Source: Minisyncoccota bacterium
GTDB taxonomy: Bacteria; Patescibacteriota; Minisyncoccia; Phycocordibacterales; UBA5272
Length of the DNA: 64,000 bases
NCBI GenBank assembly: GCA_041651055.1
Contig: JBAZJW010000002.1
Location: 26,980-90,979 of the forward strand
Direction: 5' to 3'
The position numbers and the translations under genes are program-made. Numbering within the stretch: the stretch's first letter is position 1; each line of letters opens with the position of its first letter. This document shows, piece after piece, positions 57,731-64,000 of this stretch. Below the pieces are notes generated by a model, which saw only the letters and a program-made list of their open reading frames with translations, did not search any database and was not told where the DNA came from.

Positions 57731-58864
57731 ATGAAATTCAACCCGTACTTGGACAAGATGCAGGGCAAGGTCACCATTGACCGAAAAACTGGTGAACCCT
57801 TCAACCCGCTGAACTTCTCTGCAAAGAAGGATGACAGCGGCAAGCGCAAGGTGTCTGCTAGTGAGCGCCTGTTCAACAAGGACAACGAGCTGAACGCTTC
57901 CAGCAAGAAAGACGCGCTGCAGAAGATCGCTGCCCTGTTCGAGATGGTGCAGGACGGCGAGTTCGAAGTCGCCACTCAGCCTGAGGGCTTCAAGGTTGAT
58001 GCTGCCGAGCAGGATGCCCTGCTCAAGCAGGCTTATGCCGACCCGTCTGGTGAGGGGTTTGCTAAGCTTGGTCAGCAGATGTTGACCGTGGTGCGCGAGG
58101 TCATCGACTACGAAGGCGTAACCCGCAAGCTGTGGATGGATCGGCCGGTGAAGGCTGGCGAGACCATTCGGTACGACAAAGACGTGCATGTGGTGGCCTA
58201 CGTCATCGGTGAAGATGGCGAGACTCCGCAGAGCGTGGTTGGTGGTAAGTACTTCTTCCCGCCCGAGTTCGAAGTGTCCGCTAACGTGTCCATCGAGCTG
58301 AAGGACCAGTACCGGTCGCAGTACAACATCCTTGAGCGTGCACAGGACAAGGCTCGCCAGGCCATTGAGTACCGCGAAGACCTGGCTGGTATTCGCCTGC
58401 TTCGTCGTGCATCCAACGTGGTTAACACCACCGTTGCGTTTGCTTCGATGAACCTGGGCGCGTTCGAGTCCCTGCGCTACCAGATCGAGCAGCACCGCCT
58501 CATGACTGCCGCTTTCCTGATTCACCGTCAGGAAGTGTCCGACATCGTGAACGTGCTGACCGCACAGGTTGACCCAGTGACTCAGCGTGAGATCATCATG
58601 GCTGGGTACATCGGTCACATCCTGAATACCGCAGTCATCACCACTGCTGGTACTAACAACATGTACGAGATCCTGCAGCCTGGTGAAGTGTTTGCAGTGA
58701 CTCTGCCTGAGTACCTGGGCGGCATCTCGCAACGCAGTGATCTCATGAGCGAGCCTTACACCGAGGCAGTGAACGGCAAGCCCCGGCGCGGGTTCTACTG
58801 GTGGGAGATGCTCTGCCTGGCACTGATCAACGCCAAGGGCGTTGCCTACGGTCAGAAGATCTAA
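57731..58864 (+). CDS. Candidate major capsid protein
   Basis: 377 aa, high GC; position after the scaffold; followed by a strong terminator. Confidence 0.5.
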   Translation: MKFNPYLDKMQGKVTIDRKTGEPFNPLNFSAKKDDSGKRKVSASERLFNKDNELNASSKKDALQKIAALFEMVQDGEFEVATQPEGFKVDAAEQDALLKQAYADPSGEGFAKLGQQMLTVVREVIDYEGVTRKLWMDRPVKAGETIRYDKDVHVVAYVIGEDGETPQSVVGGKYFFPPEFEVSANVSIELKDQYRSQYNILERAQDKARQAIEYREDLAGIRLLRRASNVVNTTVAFASMNLGAFESLRYQIEQHRLMTAAFLIHRQEVSDIVNVLTAQVDPVTQREIIMAGYIGHILNTAVITTAGTNNMYEILQPGEVFAVTLPEYLGGISQRSDLMSEPYTEAVNGKPRRGFYWWEMLCLALINAKGVAYGQKI

Positions 58865-58897: not shown

Positions 58898-59356
58898 ATG
58901 AATCTGAAACTAGCACGGCGTTACCTGGATTTTGCCGCCACTGAGATGGATCAGAAGGGTCACAAGGACCTGGCCGATCGCATCGACAAGCACGTCGAGC
59001 GGCTGGCTTCTGCCGATCAGCGGATGGTGGACCTGATCGTGCGCGATCTCAAGAAAATCGCTCGCGAGTCCAATCGGCGTGATCGTGGTGTGGATGAAGA
59101 CGCCAGTGAGCGCACTGATGAGCGGCCTAGCCGACTGTCCGCTCTGCGGCGTCGGCTGGCACTCCGCAAACGTCTAGCTGCTCGTCGTGAGCCGCTGTCT
59201 GAGCGCCGGTTGGCTTCCCTTCGCAGTCGCCGCAAGGCGCGGATGGAAGAGTATGGCGACGACGGCGACGAGGATCGCAGCACCGCGAGTGATCGGCTGC
59301 GCCGGTCACGGTTGGCTCGCCGAATCCGCGCTCGCCGGGAACGTGACCTAGAATAA
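58898..59356 (+). CDS. Arg-rich highly basic protein with acidic patch
   Basis: RBS aaaggagag; RRRLALRKRLAARREP...RRSRLARRIRARRERD. Confidence 0.5.
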   Translation: MNLKLARRYLDFAATEMDQKGHKDLADRIDKHVERLASADQRMVDLIVRDLKKIARESNRRDRGVDEDASERTDERPSRLSALRRRLALRKRLAARREPLSERRLASLRSRRKARMEEYGDDGDEDRSTASDRLRRSRLARRIRARRERDLE

Positions 59357-59376
59357 GCAGGTGTGGGATGGGATTG

Positions 59377-59420
59377 CCCCACGGAGTGACTTCGTGTAAT
59401 AGCACTCCGTGGGGCATTTT
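59377..59420 (+). terminator. Rho-independent terminator
   Basis: 12-bp stem CCCCACGGAGTG/CACTCCGTGGGG followed by CATTTTCAT. Confidence 0.65.
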
Positions 59421-59438
59421 CATAAAAGGTGTTGAAAT

Positions 59439-59675
59439 ATGCACATAACAAGTAGTTCGGCAGAGTTTATGACACTGCTTGAAGATTTAGCACGACAGGT
59501 GAGAGATGCGCTTAGTCAGGCGCGTTTTGCTCAACGAGAAATGGAAGATGACATAATGGCGGCCGAAGACAACGGCGATACTGTAGCAGTAGATGAGTTG
59601 CGATTAGTACACGATGATTTCACTACATTTATTAAAGGTTTGAGGAAAGCAGTAGAAATGTATGACTCCAAGTGA
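59439..59675 (+). CDS. Hypothetical protein
   Basis: RBS aaaggtg. Confidence 0.4.
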   Translation: MHITSSSAEFMTLLEDLARQVRDALSQARFAQREMEDDIMAAEDNGDTVAVDELRLVHDDFTTFIKGLRKAVEMYDSK

Positions 59676-60507
59676 GACAGCCACCAAAGTTAATAAAGTC
59701 ATCCAATTACACAAGGATGACTTCATTTACGAAAAGGTGTATTTTAATCCTATGTTCACTGCTGATTTGTACCGATTGGTACCAGAGTTAGAAGAGGAAG
59801 GCGTGATATCCCGTTTATATGAATCTGAAAATGAAGATGGTGTTACGTATAAAGGTGCCTTGAAGTATGGTACCAGTTTGCTGCATCTGGGTAAGATTAG
59901 GCTGGATGGGGAAGACATCATAGTCGATGAGAAGTTGACTCCTATAAAAGCATTGGTAAAATGGATAGAATCGGTGTTGGAGGAGACTGAGGTAAAAGAT
60001 ATGATAGTAAAAGCGATAAATATTGTGTCTGTTGATAGACAAGAAAAATACTTAGATAGAGCTAAGACAATGATGCAGCAAATGAATGATATCATCAATT
60101 CTGGGAAATTGGGTGTAAAAGAATACGCAAAGCTAGAATCATTGAGTGCTAGGTTGTGGCACTCATTTGAAGACCTAAGACAGAACCTAGAATTGGTGGG
60201 TGGTCAAACAGTAATTCTATCCGTGAAAGTTAAAAGATCTGACTTATACGAAGTGGACGAATATCTTTCCAAAAATTATAGAAAATACCTTGTTTCAGCA
60301 GACACCACCTCAGTAAATCAAACATTTATATTTATGGTACCACACACTGAGGCAGACAAACTCATAGATTCGGGGTACTTTGAAGACATGGTTGAAGAAA
60401 TTTCCGAATTGCATTCTGTAGAAGCTATAGATTATGATTTTACAGATGAACCTAGATCTGAAAAGAACACCTTAAGAACAAACTGGGTAAAGGATTATGA
60501 TATTTAG
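59662..60507 (+). CDS. Hypothetical protein
   Basis: ORF of 281 aa. Confidence 0.5.
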   Translation: MTPSETATKVNKVIQLHKDDFIYEKVYFNPMFTADLYRLVPELEEEGVISRLYESENEDGVTYKGALKYGTSLLHLGKIRLDGEDIIVDEKLTPIKALVKWIESVLEETEVKDMIVKAINIVSVDRQEKYLDRAKTMMQQMNDIINSGKLGVKEYAKLESLSARLWHSFEDLRQNLELVGGQTVILSVKVKRSDLYEVDEYLSKNYRKYLVSADTTSVNQTFIFMVPHTEADKLIDSGYFEDMVEEISELHSVEAIDYDFTDEPRSEKNTLRTNWVKDYDI

Positions 60508-60583
60508 TAATACTTTACAATTGAACGTGACTTTTTAAAAATAGAAAATGATGATGAATTCTAAAACGTGAAAGGTGAAAGCC

Positions 60584-60988
60584 ATGATAGTGAAAGCGAT
60601 AGAAGTACTGAGCATATGTAAAACTGCAAAGAAATTTACAGTTTATGTTTTTCATACTCGTGGTGATATCTATCCAGAACATGAAGAAGAAGTACAAGCC
60701 ACAAATCTTGAAAGTGCATGTAAACAGGTTTCTGATAAATTTGGTTATAAATGGATAGGAAAATCAAAAGGTAATTATGGATTTTTTGCCGTAGATGTTG
60801 ATTATTTCAATGAATGGCACGGTAAATATCACGATACACGCAAAAATAAAAAAGAAGATTTAGAAAAGGAACTAAATGAATCTATAGAAACAATAAAATC
60901 CGGCAGAGACGATGAATTTCGTGGTTTGATGTGTCTTTGTGATGATTACAATGCCTATGGTGCCAATGAAGAAGACGACGATGACTAA
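60584..60988 (+). CDS. Leader-family protein (MIVKAIEVLSIC) with acidic C-terminus
   Basis: RBS aaaggtga; flanked by 15-bp direct repeats. Confidence 0.5.
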   Translation: MIVKAIEVLSICKTAKKFTVYVFHTRGDIYPEHEEEVQATNLESACKQVSDKFGYKWIGKSKGNYGFFAVDVDYFNEWHGKYHDTRKNKKEDLEKELNESIETIKSGRDDEFRGLMCLCDDYNAYGANEEDDDD

Positions 60989-61023
60989 ATAGTTTTTAGT
61001 GATACTTTACAATTGACTCGAAA

Positions 61024-62262
61024 ATGGTAACATTGTTGGCAGTGTTTTTGTCTCATAAAATACGTCTTTATCCAAATGACAAACAGGTGTCTTACCTGAA
61101 ACGTGCTTGTGGTATCAAGCGTTTTGCTTATAATTGGGCGTTAGCTGAGTCTAGAAAACTATATGAGCAAGGCATAAAAACTTCCGGTTACGATCTCAGT
61201 AAACGATTTAACGCAATAAAACGGGAACAGTTTCCTTTCGTACTAGAAGTATCAAAATGGGTGTCTCAAAAAGCCATTTATGATCTTGAAGACGCTTACA
61301 AAAATTGGTGGAGTAAACGTGCGCGTGCCCCCAAATTCAAGAAAAAAGGTAAGTGCAAAGATAGTTTTTATCTGGCCAATGATGCAACAAAAACTGTTGA
61401 GCACAGAATTTATATTTCTAAGTGTGGGTGGGTGCGCATGTCTCAGTCTTTGCGTTTTCCTGGTCACGTGATGTCTGTAGTAATTTCAAGTGAATATGCT
61501 AAGTGGCATGCTTCTATCCAAGTGGAATTGGACGGCACCTGGTCTTGTCCTCATACTTGCAAAACCCAAGCAGTGTGTGGATTGGACATGGGTGTACGTG
61601 ACTTAGTGGTATTAGATGATGGCACTAAGTACTTAGCCCCTAGGAGTCTGCGTAAGTCCGAGAAAAAGTTGAAGAGACTGAATCGTGTAGTCTCAAGGAG
61701 GGTAAAAGGATCAAACCGTAGGAAGAAAGCTGTGCATATACTAAGTAGAGTCCATGAGAAAGTGACTAACATACGCAAGGACTGTATACATAAGATCACT
61801 GCTAAACTAGTAGAAGACTACCGTATCATAGGTATGGAAGATTTGAACGTCAAGGGTATGATCAAAAATCATCACTTGGCCAAGTCTGTGTCTGATGCTG
61901 CGTTTGGTACAGTCAAAAGCCAATTGGAGTACAAGACTGAGCTGTCAGGATCAGTATTAGTCAAAGCAGATCGCTTTTACCCATCGAGTAAGATGTGTTC
62001 AAACTGTGGACATGTCTTAGACACTTTGCCGTTGCGTATACGTGTTTGGACTTGTCCTGGGTGCGGTGCAGTACATGATCGTGATGTCAATGCTGCTAAA
62101 AATTTACTAAATGTCGCCTTAAGGTATAAGGAGACTGTAAACGCTCGTGGAGTAGAAAGCTCTGGTACTGGTGATTTTACTAGTACGAAACTGTCTACTG
62201 TGAAGCGAGTACCCGGCAGCCGCAGACCAACGGTGGTTTCGGTTCAAGTCCGGGGTTCCTAA
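61024..62262 (+). CDS. tnpB: IS200/IS605-family TnpB (OrfB) RNA-guided nuclease
   Basis: RuvC-I GLDMGVRDLVV, RuvC-II IGMEDLNVKGM, zinc finger CSNCGH...CPGCGAVHDRDVNAAKNL; intact. Confidence 0.85.
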   Translation: MVTLLAVFLSHKIRLYPNDKQVSYLKRACGIKRFAYNWALAESRKLYEQGIKTSGYDLSKRFNAIKREQFPFVLEVSKWVSQKAIYDLEDAYKNWWSKRARAPKFKKKGKCKDSFYLANDATKTVEHRIYISKCGWVRMSQSLRFPGHVMSVVISSEYAKWHASIQVELDGTWSCPHTCKTQAVCGLDMGVRDLVVLDDGTKYLAPRSLRKSEKKLKRLNRVVSRRVKGSNRRKKAVHILSRVHEKVTNIRKDCIHKITAKLVEDYRIIGMEDLNVKGMIKNHHLAKSVSDAAFGTVKSQLEYKTELSGSVLVKADRFYPSSKMCSNCGHVLDTLPLRIRVWTCPGCGAVHDRDVNAAKNLLNVALRYKETVNARGVESSGTGDFTSTKLSTVKRVPGSRRPTVVSVQVRGS

Positions 62263-62273
62263 AGGAGAGAAAG

Positions 62274-62897
62274 ATGAAGCAAGTAACCATGCCCAAGCGC
62301 CTAACCCTCAAGTACCTACTCGATAACAAGTTGCCGGTATGGGTACAGAACATGACCGGTCGTGGGTGGATCCCTTCTGGTGGTCGTAAGGCCGTGCCGT
62401 GCCTTATTACCATTCAGATTGGGACTGGTGACACCCGAGACAAGATGTGGATTCCGCCTGGTGCTGATCCTGTGTGCTTGACCGACCAAGCCGACATGGA
62501 CACACTTCGCACCAGCCGCGATCTCTTCAAGGCTATTGACAAGGGTGCGCTGGTGTTGCTGAATCCAGAAGAGGCTGACAAGTACTACGATGAAAATGAC
62601 ACCCGCCGCGAAGCTTTGAACCGCAAGCTGCATGCACTTCAGACCGAGGAAAAGTTGGATGGTGTGGCGGTCAGTGACGTGGGGTCCATCATTGAAGACG
62701 TGTCTATCGATGACTCTTTGTTGAACATGTGCCTGGGTCTGAAGCACGGCACTGTCAAGGAGTCTGATGCCCTTGAAATGGTGATGGAGCGTTCACCTTC
62801 TTACTCTCTGAACGACCTGAATTATTTGTCAGCGAATGGAAAGTTTGATTCGATCAAGAAGGTGGCGCAGCACGAGATAGACAAGCGTGACAAGTAA
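62274..62897 (+). CDS. Hypothetical protein (GC-rich)
   Basis: RBS aaaggagag. Confidence 0.45.
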   Translation: MKQVTMPKRLTLKYLLDNKLPVWVQNMTGRGWIPSGGRKAVPCLITIQIGTGDTRDKMWIPPGADPVCLTDQADMDTLRTSRDLFKAIDKGALVLLNPEEADKYYDENDTRREALNRKLHALQTEEKLDGVAVSDVGSIIEDVSIDDSLLNMCLGLKHGTVKESDALEMVMERSPSYSLNDLNYLSANGKFDSIKKVAQHEIDKRDK

Positions 62898-62899
62898 TA

Positions 62900-63208
62900 C
62901 TACTTTTTGGTGCAGCACCCGTCATCGAAGTAAAACCCGTCATCAGCTAAGAACTTCGCATCCTCTGCCGTATCCAGCAACGTTTCGAGGTATCTGCACA
63001 ACTGCCTAGAAGTTTTTGCTTCTCCCACGTTCTTGGAGGCTAATACCAGCATTTTCGTCAGCTTCTCGACAGTGGACAAGGTTTCTTGCCGGTCTGCGAG
63101 GGCATTGTGAAATACTACCTCAAACTGCTCGGCGGCATTTTTGGCAGCCGATGCTTTGGAGAATTCTACCTGCGCTGTGTGCATCATATCTGACAGTTTC
63201 TTTAGCAT
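62900..63208 (-). CDS. Hypothetical protein
   Basis: Minus-strand ORF in the GC-rich island. Confidence 0.45.
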   Translation of the reverse strand: MLKKLSDMMHTAQVEFSKASAAKNAAEQFEVVFHNALADRQETLSTVEKLTKMLVLASKNVGEAKTSRQLCRYLETLLDTAEDAKFLADDGFYFDDGCCTKK

Positions 63209-63225
63209 AGTGTGTCTCTTTTTGT

Positions 63226-63477
63226 CTAGGCCAAGCCATCTCTGCCGAGCCTGATATCTTCAATCTTCATCAAAGCTTCCAGGTGTGTGTTCAGAGCGCG
63301 CTTGGCGGCTGCTACGGATTCGAACTCACCCAACCAACACCCGTCTGATCCCTGTGCCACACACGGTTCATGTCCTGCTTCGATGGCTGTCTTGTACAGT
63401 ATCAGGATCAGACACTCTTGAAAACTCCCGTGCTTTCCGATCCACCTGCTGCCAAATTTGGTCCACTGATAGCCCAT
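63226..63477 (-). CDS. Hypothetical protein
   Basis: Minus-strand ORF. Confidence 0.45.
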   Translation of the reverse strand: MGYQWTKFGSRWIGKHGSFQECLILILYKTAIEAGHEPCVAQGSDGCWLGEFESVAAAKRALNTHLEALMKIEDIRLGRDGLA

Positions 63478-63501
63478 ACTAATGCTCCTTTGTTAGGACG
63501 T

Positions 63502-63612
63502 TTAGCAGCAGCACCGCACCACAGCAACGGTGATCGCCGCTACGATGATTGCGTCCGCGATCTTGGCCCACCAAGGCATGATGGCCCACGTCATCTTGAT
63601 CCTCTTCCACAT
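63502..63612 (-). CDS. 36-aa hydrophobic peptide (MWKRIKMTWAIMPWWAKIADAIIVAAITVAVVRCCC)
   Basis: GGAGG RBS 5 nt upstream; it is the first gene after the minus-strand promoter. Confidence 0.4.
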   Translation of the reverse strand: MWKRIKMTWAIMPWWAKIADAIIVAAITVAVVRCCC

Positions 63613-63630
63613 TGAACGCCTCCTACGAAT

Positions 63631-63659
63631 ATTATACCACGTTTATTATACTCAGTCAA
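63631..63659 (-). promoter_or_regulatory. Consensus sigma70 promoter on the minus strand (TTGACT-N17-TATAAT)
   Basis: Reverse complement of 63631-63659 reads TTGACTgagtataataaacgtggTATAAT. Confidence 0.6.
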
Positions 63660-63683
63660 TGTACGCGCATGTATGATATGTGA

Positions 63684-63860
63684 CTACCAGTAGTCTGCCA
63701 GGTTACTCCAAGAAACGCGCACAGTGTCTTGCTCATAAGCACCGTTCACTAGTTTGCGCAGGAACTTGAGGAACACCTCTTCCGTGGGGGCGGTGAGTAC
63801 CACCACTTCATTGACCTTGCCGTCCCTGTCCAGTACCATAATCGTGCACGTGGTCTTCAT
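63684..63860 (-). CDS. 58-aa hypothetical protein
   Basis: Minus-strand ORF with GGAG RBS. Confidence 0.4.
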   Translation of the reverse strand: MKTTCTIMVLDRDGKVNEVVVLTAPTEEVFLKFLRKLVNGAYEQDTVRVSWSNLADYW

Positions 63861-64000
63861 TTGGAGATCTCCTTTTCGTTATCCATCAAAAATAAAGACG
63901 CATGAGAGGTGTTGTTCCTGACATCTAAATTTATGCTTATTTGTGTCTGATGAATTTTAATTGAACGTGTGTGTTGTATAGTATCATAATCGCAGGATCA

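What the first reader, a model, noticed from the sequence alone, without database searches (positions are those of the whole stretch)
60508..62300. Intact TnpB in a late-gene context, with flanking 15-bp direct repeats and a structured 3' end (candidate omega RNA)
TnpB is complete: RuvC I/II/III and the CxxC...CxxC finger are all present. No TnpA is seen in this window.

The leader-family gene immediately upstream is bracketed by ATACTTTACAATTGA at 60510 and at 61003. The second copy abuts the tnpB start and contains TTAC-like target motifs typical of IS200/605 insertion.

The 3' end of tnpB and the 40 nt after it (ccaacggtggtttcggttcaagtccggggttcc) fold into a T-arm-like hairpin, which is where the omega RNA scaffold and guide would be expected. 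A guided nuclease carried by a virulent phage could target competing phages or host loci.
Basis: partly seen in the sequence, partly recalled or inferred. Interest (0 to 1): 0.65.

Follow-up and report, generated by a model that had tools for sequence, protein, structure and literature searches.

The report
Phage-borne TnpB nuclease with guide RNA
A large phage carries, just after its capsid gene, an intact TnpB RNA-guided nuclease gene with a well-supported guide-RNA scaffold at its 3' end but no transposase and no recognisable left end, which makes it an ordinary new member of a known kind of selfish element.

Summary
The observation largely holds. tnpB (61024-62262) is intact. It has all three Pfam domains, and D188/E272/D354 and both CxxC pairs align to ISDra2 TnpB. 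The 3' end is a real structured RNA. In seven loci whose TnpBs are 55-63% identical, nucleotide conservation runs through the ORF tail and stops sharply at CCTAG (CCTAA in the window, 62258-62262). Of 44 consensus pairs, 28 show compensatory changes, with 92.7% of cells paired against 35-43% in slid controls. The omega RNA scaffold is therefore about 62108-62262. The guide is the flank from 62263, which is the RBS and start codon of the next gene.

The direct repeat is real: 22 nt, 21/22 identical, at 60503 and 60995. It is best read as a duplicated promoter region in front of two genes, not as an IS footprint. IS200/IS605 elements make no target duplications, no left-end hairpin is present, and orf137 belongs to an unrelated small-protein family. 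The "T-arm" is the 3' strand of nested scaffold helices inside the ORF, not a hairpin lying after it.

No TnpA is found in the window or beside ten close relatives, all on phage-like contigs. Two syntenic relatives keep tnpB at one site with dN/dS of 0.11. The most likely mechanism is TnpA-independent RNA-guided homing or retention. This is a new member of a known kind.

The parts
60503..60524 (+). Direct repeat copy 1 (TTTAGTAATACTTTACAATTGA). It lies in the spacer between the orf281 stop and orf137 and is promoter-like: TTTACA at 60514, 17-nt spacer, AAAAAT.
60584..60988 (+). orf137/134, a small acidic-tailed protein of an uncharacterised family of about 112 aa. It is a neighbour and is not shown to belong to the tnpB element. 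Its first 16 or so residues (MIVKAI...) are an extra leader.
60995..61016 (+). Direct repeat copy 2 (TTTAGTGATACTTTACAATTGA), 8 nt upstream of the annotated tnpB ATG. TTTACA at 61006, 16-nt spacer, TGgTAACAT ending at 61033. It is the probable tnpB promoter.
61024..62262 (+). tnpB, 412 aa. The relatives begin (M/V)xLSH, so the real start may be the GTG at 61042. RuvC D188/E272/D354 and zinc finger C325/C328/C344/C347 are intact. The family's usual stop codon (TAA/TGA, 15 nt before the right end) is CAA here, so the ORF runs to the last base of the element.
62108..62262 (+). Omega RNA scaffold. Helix 1 lies at about 62113-62135. A long composite helix lies at about 62143-62210. The 3' nested helices lie at about 62212-62254, followed by the single-stranded tail ...UUCCUAA. 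This is the right end of the element.
62263..62282 (+). Inferred guide segment and target flank, AGGAGAGAAAGATGAAGCAA, covering the RBS and start codon of orf207. The guide length is inferred from ISDra2 (about 16 nt) and was not measured.
   Evidence: Similarity among seven loci ends exactly at 62262.
62274..62897 (+). orf207, the downstream phage gene. It is an ORFan with a weak hit to phrog_17686 and weak similarity to the gene that follows the capsid gene in Virus Rctr197k.

Best explanation
This is a tnpA-less TnpB-omega RNA cassette of the IS200/IS605 lineage (ISDra2-like TnpB) living in the head-gene region of a large phage.

Proposed mechanism:
1. Transcription from a promoter in the spacer at 60995-61033 yields tnpB mRNA.
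2. The 3' end of that mRNA (62108-62262) folds into the omega RNA scaffold and continues into about 16-20 nt of flanking sequence (62263 onward), which serves as the guide.
3. TnpB bound to this RNA should cut DNA in which that flank is preceded by the element's TAM rather than by the element's own right end. Such DNA is a genome copy of the same or a related phage that lacks the cassette.
4. Repair from a cassette-bearing genome then copies the cassette in. This is homing or retention without TnpA.

The 22-nt direct repeats are two copies of a promoter region serving orf137 and tnpB. They are not transposition scars.

Shown: an intact nuclease, a conserved covarying RNA, a sharp right end, absence of TnpA and of a left-end hairpin, and purifying selection in related phages. 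Inferred: transcription, RNA processing, the TAM, cleavage and homing.
For: - Domains and catalytic residues are intact.
- Seven-locus alignment: conservation ends at CCTAG/CCTAA. Of 44 consensus pairs, 28 have compensatory changes. Pairing is 92.7% against 35-43% when partners are slid, and 0 of 500 shuffles reach the observed values.
- The window's own fold reproduces the consensus, with z=-3.0.
- Covariance model R1 hits the window only at 62108-62262. It also finds the 3' ends of more distant tnpB genes that were not used to build it.
- The C-terminal protein tails differ among relatives while RNA pairing is kept.
- No TnpA is present in the window or beside ten close relatives, all on phage- or MGE-like contigs.
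- In the one pattern-based scan of cellular genomes, the best hits were 41-43% identical (59% over one 37-residue fragment).
- L063 and L092 are syntenic phages with tnpB at the same site. dN/dS is 0.11 at dS 0.55, dS is lower (0.27) over the RNA overlap, and the 24 nt after the right end are identical.
- Each repeat copy carries a -35/-10-like arrangement. All relatives have a promoter-like box just upstream of (arc-)tnpB. This agrees with Arc-regulated IS605 promoters (bioRxiv 10.64898/2026.09.24.754181).
- TnpA-independent 'non-restorative homing' is discussed in PMC13565253.
Against: - There is no expression data and the TAM is unknown.
- No element-free relative of this phage exists in any collection searched. 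orf207 and orf281 are ORFans and megablast against phages finds nothing. The insertion site and left boundary are therefore undefined.
- The promoter scan as a whole is not enriched over shuffles.
- Only one copy is present in the window, so mobility is not demonstrated for this copy.
- The dN/dS and synteny evidence comes from relatives whose TnpBs are 55-57% identical to the window's, not from this phage.
- The terminal base differs from the family (A instead of G).
Confidence: 0.6

Rival explanations
1. This is a classical IS200/IS605 insertion mobilised in trans by a TnpA encoded elsewhere. On this reading the TTAC inside the repeat is the target and TAM, and the repeats are produced by or related to insertion, possibly as two tandem elements.
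For: - The TnpB is of the ISDra2 type.
- TTAC (61007-61010) and TTGAC (61013-61017, compare the ISDra2 TAM TTGAT, from memory) lie just upstream of tnpB.
- TTGAC also precedes arc-tnpB in L002, L060, L062 and L063.
- Only 64 kb of a 184-kb contig was examined for TnpA.
Against: - IS200/IS605 elements make no target duplication (established knowledge).
- The repeat extends about 15 nt 5' of TTAC.
- There is no left-end hairpin (z=0.11) and no left/right similarity above shuffles in any of seven loci.
- In relatives, TTGAC always sits 17 nt from a good -10 hexamer, so it reads as a -35 box.
- In a phage with two copies, the shared sequence starts only at the -10 box, about 10 nt before the start codon.
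- There is no TnpA beside any of ten relatives.
- orf137 has none of the features of an IS.
Confidence: 0.1
2. TnpB has been domesticated for the phage's benefit. The nuclease and RNA would be kept because they exclude or degrade co-infecting relatives that lack the cassette (marker exclusion), or because they regulate the downstream gene by binding DNA or RNA at its RBS and start. Self-propagation would not be the reason.
For: - Orthologous tnpB sits at the same site in two diverged phages under strong purifying selection.
- Close relatives are confined to phage-like contigs.
- The guide covers the RBS and ATG of orf207.
- There is no TnpA and no left end.
Against: - The RuvC residues are intact, unlike the nuclease-dead TldR-type domestications (bioRxiv 10.1101/2023.11.30.569447).
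- The guide is plain flanking DNA, as in selfish elements.
- Purifying selection is equally expected for a homing element.
- Insertion sites differ among relatives: pyrF, a tail-fibre neighbourhood and replication genes.
- In the cassette-bearing genome the DNA target is preceded by the right end rather than a TAM.
Confidence: 0.2
3. This is an inert relic. A once-mobile tnpB was captured from a host IS and is now decaying, with no current activity. The RNA structure would merely be inherited.
For: - It is single-copy, with no TnpA and no left end.
- The family stop codon is lost and the terminal base is altered.
- The start codon and RBS are weak.
Against: - The 412-codon ORF is fully open with every catalytic and zinc ligand in place.
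- Helix 5 of the RNA carries lineage-specific compensatory changes in the window itself.
- Relatives show dN/dS of 0.11.
- GC content (about 41%) matches the phage average of about 42%, which argues against recent capture.
Confidence: 0.1

Closest known systems
ISDra2 TnpB-omega RNA (reRNA) of Deinococcus radiodurans, IS200/IS605 family (PDB 8exa, 8h1j)
   Same: - The domain order is the same, and the RuvC D-E-D and zinc finger align at E=4e-62.
- The RNA scaffold overlaps the 3' end of the ORF and ends at the element's right end, with the guide supplied by the flank.
- The conserved nucleotide block AAACGCxxGUGGAG falls on the ...NA(R/H)G peptide, which both proteins share.
   Different: - There is no TnpA partner and no left-end hairpin.
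- The element is single-copy and sits in a phage rather than a chromosome.
- The ORF runs to the last base of the element.
- The TAM is unknown, whereas ISDra2 uses TTGAT.
tnpB-only IS605-family derivatives (IS1341 group) and Arc-carrying IS605 elements (Moon et al., bioRxiv 10.64898/2026.09.24.754181)
   Same: - It is a stand-alone tnpB with its own promoter.
- Four close relatives (L002, L060, L062, L063) carry a small ribbon-helix-helix (Arc-like) gene and a TTGAC-N17 -10 promoter with a palindrome directly upstream of tnpB.
   Different: The window's copy, like L003 and L061, has no arc gene. In that position sits a 22-nt repeat shared with the neighbouring gene's upstream region.
Free-standing homing endonuclease genes of T4-like phages (SegF, MobE; intronless homing), and 'transposon non-restorative homing' as framed in PMC13565253
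   Same: - It is a selfish nuclease gene wedged between conserved phage genes, co-oriented with them and ending just before the next gene's start.
- The predicted target is the cassette-free allele of a co-infecting relative.
- In L002 the cassette is accompanied by a replacement 3' end of the interrupted pyrF gene. This resembles co-conversion of flanking markers.
   Different: - Target recognition would be by RNA rather than protein.
- No homing has been demonstrated for phage TnpB, here or in the papers read.
Phage-borne tnpB of cyanophage A-1(L) (bioRxiv 10.64898/2026.02.14.705889)
   Same: tnpB is carried by a tailed phage and is variably present among relatives.
   Different: The A-1(L) copy is identical to host IS copies, indicating recent capture. 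In the one pattern-based scan of cellular genomes, the window's TnpB had no relative above about 43% identity over most of its length. Its closest kin are on phage-like contigs.

Membership tests
TnpB (RNA-guided nuclease of IS200/IS605 and IS607 elements) | HTH/WED-REC region, split RuvC with D-E-D, and a CxxC...CxxC zinc finger (TNB domain) | tested here: met
   Three Pfam domains score above their cut-offs. The alignment to ISDra2 TnpB places D188, E272 and D354, and C325/C328/C344/C347 are present.
TnpB (RNA-guided nuclease of IS200/IS605 and IS607 elements) | Omega RNA encoded at and overlapping the 3' end of tnpB, ending at the right end of the element, with the guide taken from the flank | tested here: met
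   Of 44 pairs, 28 carry compensatory changes, and pairing is 92.7% against 35-43% in slid controls. There is a sharp end at CCTAG/CCTAA in 7 of 7 loci. Model R1 recovers independent tnpB 3' ends. Expression was not tested.
TnpB (RNA-guided nuclease of IS200/IS605 and IS607 elements) | RNA-guided, TAM-dependent DNA cleavage | not testable with these tools
   This needs biochemistry or a plasmid-interference assay. The TAM is unknown because no empty site is available.
Autonomous IS200/IS605 insertion sequence | Y1 (HUH) transposase TnpA, or for IS607 a serine recombinase, in the element | tested here: not met
   No Y1_Tnp or Resolvase hit appears among 94 ORFs of at least 110 aa, among ORFs 57.7-62.9 kb, in the remaining called genes of the contig end, or beside ten relatives. 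The other 120 kb or so of the contig were not seen.
Autonomous IS200/IS605 insertion sequence | Subterminal imperfect hairpins at both left and right ends, related to each other | tested here: not met
   The right end has helices that are part of the RNA. Upstream of tnpB there is no stable hairpin (DNA fold z=0.11) and no left/right similarity above shuffles in seven loci.
Autonomous IS200/IS605 insertion sequence | Insertion 3' of a fixed tetra- or pentanucleotide without target duplication | not testable with these tools
   No cassette-free relative was found. The 22-nt repeat is not a target duplication in form.
Autonomous IS200/IS605 insertion sequence | Multiple copies per genome | tested here: not met
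   There is a single tnpB and a single R1 hit in the 64-kb window. A more distant phage relative does have two copies.
TldR-type domesticated, nuclease-dead TnpB | Loss of RuvC catalytic residues or truncation, with the guide directed at a promoter | tested here: not met
   D-E-D is intact and the protein is full length.
IStron (group I intron fused to an IS605/IS607 element) | Group I intron at the 5' side, with the element interrupting a gene and being spliced out | tested here: not met
   Rfam gives no intron hit at E up to 10 in 59000-64000 and none at gathering score in six relatives. No split gene is present in the window. In L002 the upstream pyrF is complete with its own stop.

The most novel reading that the evidence does not exclude
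The window's cassette may belong to a phage-resident clade of TnpB-omega RNA cassettes that have dispensed with TnpA and with a transposon left end. These would persist and spread purely as RNA-guided homing genes between co-infecting phages. They would be the RNA-guided counterpart of free-standing homing endonucleases, inserting just upstream of a gene start and sometimes dragging replacement gene ends with them, as in the pyrF case in L002.
Probability: 0.3. Interest if true: 0.65.

Novelty: new member of a known kind. Interest (0 to 1): 0.35.

Why it matters
TnpB is the ancestor of Cas12 and is used as a compact genome editor. How tnpB survives without its transposase is an open question. 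The main established answer is TnpA-coupled restorative homing, and TnpA-independent homing has so far been reported only for an IS605 insertion spreading in a plasmid population (PMC13565253).

A set of phage-borne, TnpA-less, left-end-less cassettes with a well-defined RNA scaffold and evidence of purifying selection would be a natural system for testing TnpA-independent homing between viral genomes. It would also supply new TnpB/omega RNA pairs with defined scaffold ends.

For this window alone the finding is ordinary: an annotated TnpB in a metagenomic phage contig that NCBI labels as a Paceibacterota MAG.

Tried and rejected
1. Rfam found no omega RNA, intron or tRNA-like family at E up to 10 and none in relatives. 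ARAGORN found no tRNA at the 'T-arm'.
2. The empty site could not be found. Megablast of 57-64 kb against phages gave nothing. orf207 gave no related loci in viral contigs. orf207 and orf281 are ORFans in 5.8 billion proteins. The only hint is a weak match of orf207 to the gene after the capsid gene of Rctr197k.
3. Defining the left end by alignment failed, because there is no conserved block upstream of the start codon (A3). A left/right similarity search and a hairpin search were both negative.
4. TTGAC as a TAM is attractive because of the ISDra2 TTGAT. It cannot be separated from its role as a -35 box, since it always lies 17 nt from a -10 hexamer. In the two-copy phage the copies share only GTTGC at that spot, with unrelated spacers.
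5. The low-GC 'island' argument is weak. The 59.4-62.2 kb stretch has low GC relative to the GC-rich head genes, but tnpB (about 41%) matches the genome mean of about 42%.
6. orf137 is not IS cargo. Its family is not next to tnpB on the two short contigs available.
7. The metagenome and genome scans returned only relatives of up to about 47% identity over short segments. These were useful for testing R1 but not for finding the element's ends.
8. The guide sequence was searched in viral contigs. One 23-nt identity was found at the RBS and start of an unrelated gene, and it was judged a coincidence of RBS-type sequence.
Full report
**Context**

The window comes from a 183,779-bp metagenomic contig that NCBI labels as a Candidatus Paceibacterota MAG. 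Its content is that of a large tailed phage:
- A major head protein gene lies at 57731-58864. It matches phrog_2522 at E=5e-53 and is 39% identical to Virus Rctr197k.
- The window also holds endonuclease VII, a Thoeris inhibitor Tad6 domain, NADAR, a PD-(D/E)XK nuclease, dTDP-rhamnose genes and two tRNAs.

Mean GC is about 42%. The head-gene block (56-59.4 kb) and the stretch at 62.2-63.6 kb are richer, at 50-67%. The stretch between them, 59.4-62.2 kb, has 30-45% GC.

**The protein**

- ORF 61024-62262 (+) encodes 412 aa with HTH_OrfB_IS605, OrfB_IS605 and Cas12f1-like_TNB.
- phmmer against PDB sequences gives ISDra2 TnpB at E=4e-62 over residues 12-376.
- The motifs GLD188MG, GME272DL and HDRD354VNAA align with the RuvC I/II/III motifs. 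C325xxC328 and C344xxC347 form the zinc finger.
- Relatives start (M/V)xLSH, so the true start may be the GTG at 61042.

**The RNA**

The closest proteins (55-63% identity) were traced to their contigs.

An alignment of the 3' regions of seven loci shows nucleotide conservation that continues through the poorly conserved C-terminal tail. It ends abruptly at ...GCCTAG, or ...TTCCTAA in the window at 62258-62262. Beyond that point all seven sequences are unrelated.

RNAalifold on the trimmed alignment (A4) predicts 44 pairs in seven helices, 28 of them with compensatory double changes. Counting pairs gives these controls:
- 92.7% of cells are paired, against 35-43% when the 3' partners are slid by 1-3 columns.
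- 28 pairs carry double changes, against 7-10 in the slid controls.
- None of 500 column shuffles reaches the observed values.

The window's sequence alone folds into the same architecture at -57.8 kcal/mol, with z=-3.0.

A covariance model built from A4 (R1) hits the window once, at 62108-62262 with 119 bits. It also finds the 3' ends of more distant tnpB genes that were not used to build it: L043, L035, L017, L024, L008, L009/10, L032, L070, L093 and L095. Rfam has no matching family.

I conclude that 62108-62262 is the omega RNA scaffold and that 62262 is the right end of the element. The guide is then the adjoining flank, AGGAGAGAAAGATGAAGCAA... This is the ribosome-binding site and start codon of orf207, whose ATG is at 62274.

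It forms the 3' strands of helices 6 and 7, and no tRNA is predicted there.

In the relatives, tnpB stops 15 nt before the right end. In the window that stop codon is CAA, so the ORF reads to the last base.

**The repeats**

The 15-mer is present exactly twice, at 60510 and 61002. It extends to a 22-mer with 21/22 identity at 60503-60524 and 60995-61016, and there are no further copies in 64 kb. So the repeat is real.

Four observations argue against an IS footprint:
- Each copy begins within a few bases of the stop codon of the preceding gene. Each contains TTTACA followed, after 17 or 16 nt, by AAAAAT or TGgTAACAT. The copies diverge immediately 3' of the -35-like region.
- All relatives also have a promoter-like box just upstream of tnpB, or of a small ribbon-helix-helix (Arc-like) gene that precedes tnpB in L002, L060, L062 and L063. 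This fits the recent description of Arc-repressed IS605 promoters (bioRxiv 10.64898/2026.09.24.754181).
- IS200/IS605 transposition leaves no target duplication (established knowledge).
- The DNA upstream of tnpB has no hairpin (z=0.11) and no similarity to the right end.

The gene between the repeats, orf137, belongs to a weakly conserved family of proteins of about 112 aa. Its conserved pattern is EACKKVA..GY.WIG..FFA..W..SG..EFRGL. On the two short contigs available, that family is not adjacent to tnpB.

The best reading is therefore a duplicated promoter or regulatory region in front of two adjacent genes. The IS-footprint reading is not supported.

**Boundaries and mobility**

- No TnpA domain was found in the window or next to any of ten relatives.
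- The left boundary cannot be set, because this phage has no close relative in any collection searched.
- In a 228-kb IMG/VR phage contig with two copies that are 87% identical, the shared sequence starts only at the -10 hexamer, about 10 nt before the start codon. It stops before the last RNA helix. Any left end there is only a few tens of nucleotides at most.

Two syntenic phage contigs (L063 and L092, 79-87% nt identity) carry orthologous arc-tnpB at the same site:
- The TnpBs are 88% identical in protein sequence.
- dN/dS is 0.11 at dS 0.55.
- dS falls to 0.27 over the RNA overlap.
- The 24 nt after the right end are identical.

This indicates long vertical descent under purifying selection, without a transposase.

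In L002 the cassette lies between a complete pyrF gene and a 52-codon fragment. That fragment is 60% identical to residues 273-314 of the upstream pyrF. The cassette therefore seems to have arrived together with a replacement 3' end of the gene it interrupts. This pattern is known from homing-endonuclease co-conversion, not from peel-and-paste transposition.

The one pattern-based scan of species-representative cellular genomes found nothing better than 41-43% identity, apart from 59% over a single 37-residue fragment.

**Mechanism**

The most likely mechanism, with confidence about 0.6, runs as follows:
1. A promoter at about 61006-61033 drives tnpB.
2. The mRNA 3' end yields the omega RNA with a flank-derived guide.
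3. The complex cuts genomes in which the flank is preceded by a TAM instead of by the right end CCTAA. These are cassette-free alleles.
4. Recombination with a cassette-bearing genome restores or spreads the cassette.

TnpA-independent homing of this sort is discussed as 'non-restorative homing' in PMC13565253.

The rivals are:
- classical trans-mobilised IS (confidence 0.1);
- domestication for phage competition or regulation of orf207 (0.2);
- inert relic (0.1).

Nothing here shows expression or cleavage.

**Comparison and novelty**

This is a TnpB-omega RNA pair of the ISDra2 type. As an insertion sequence it fails the tests for TnpA, a left-end hairpin and multicopy status. It is best filed as a tnpB-only derivative.

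Phage-borne tnpB is already documented, for example in cyanophage A-1(L) (bioRxiv 10.64898/2026.02.14.705889), and the gene is already annotated as TnpB in the public record. The finding is therefore a new member of a known kind.

The wider pattern of a possibly phage-restricted, TnpA-less clade behaving like homing genes is the only part with more than routine interest. It rests on relatives rather than on this window.

Noticed in passing
window 59990-60018 and 60573-60601: A 29-nt repeat (25/29 identical) comprises an RBS, an ATG and the codons for IVKAI. One copy starts orf137. The other lies inside orf281 at Met114. orf137's family homologues lack this 16-residue leader, so orf281 may be a gene fusion or may have an internal start.
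   Followed up: partly
window 59368-59423: A 21-bp GC-rich inverted repeat followed by TTTTCAT lies just after orf152, which is the Arg-rich ORF following the capsid gene. It looks like the terminator of the head operon and marks the start of the low-GC stretch.
   Followed up: no
L002 3898-4854, 5001-6218 and 6200-6358: The arc-tnpB cassette sits between a complete pyrF (OMP decarboxylase) gene and a displaced fragment that is a 60%-identical duplicate of pyrF residues 273-314. The cassette seems to have brought a replacement gene end, which resembles homing or co-conversion.
   Followed up: partly
L063 4001-5221 and L092 3055-4275: Two syntenic phage contigs carry orthologous arc-tnpB at the same site. 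dN/dS is 0.11, dS is reduced over the RNA overlap, and the 24 nt of guide flank are identical.
   Followed up: yes
L067, L068 and L099 (IMGVR_UViG_3300037067_009442, 228 kb): A jumbo-phage contig carries two tnpB copies that are 87% identical. Their shared sequence begins at the -10 box and ends before the last omega RNA helix, so the two copies carry different terminal helices and flanks.
   Followed up: partly
L065 4582-4604 and L066 526-548 (minus strand): A 23-nt exact identity (AAAGGAGAGAAAGATGAAGCAAG) links the window's guide flank to the RBS and start of an unrelated gene in two IMG/VR contigs. It is probably a coincidence of RBS-type sequence.
   Followed up: partly
L095 1-87: A second, 5'-truncated match to the omega RNA model (29 bits) lies about 5 kb upstream of the tnpB of that contig, beside a DnaB gene. 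It may be a solo right-end remnant or a neighbouring copy.
   Followed up: no
window 1-57690 (ORFs not individually located): The phage encodes a Tad6 Thoeris-inhibitor domain, NADAR, DUF4326, a WYL protein, a response-regulator receiver, an HD domain, a STAND-like NTPase/AAA protein and dTDP-rhamnose synthesis genes. The contig is labelled a Candidatus Paceibacterota MAG at NCBI although it looks viral.
   Followed up: no
L002, L060, L062 and L063, 100-200 nt upstream of tnpB: Small ribbon-helix-helix genes overlap the tnpB start. Each is preceded by TTGAC-N17 -10 promoters, with a palindrome in the spacer that is clearest in L060, L062 and L063 and is a likely Arc operator. The window, L003 and L061 lack the arc gene.
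   Followed up: partly
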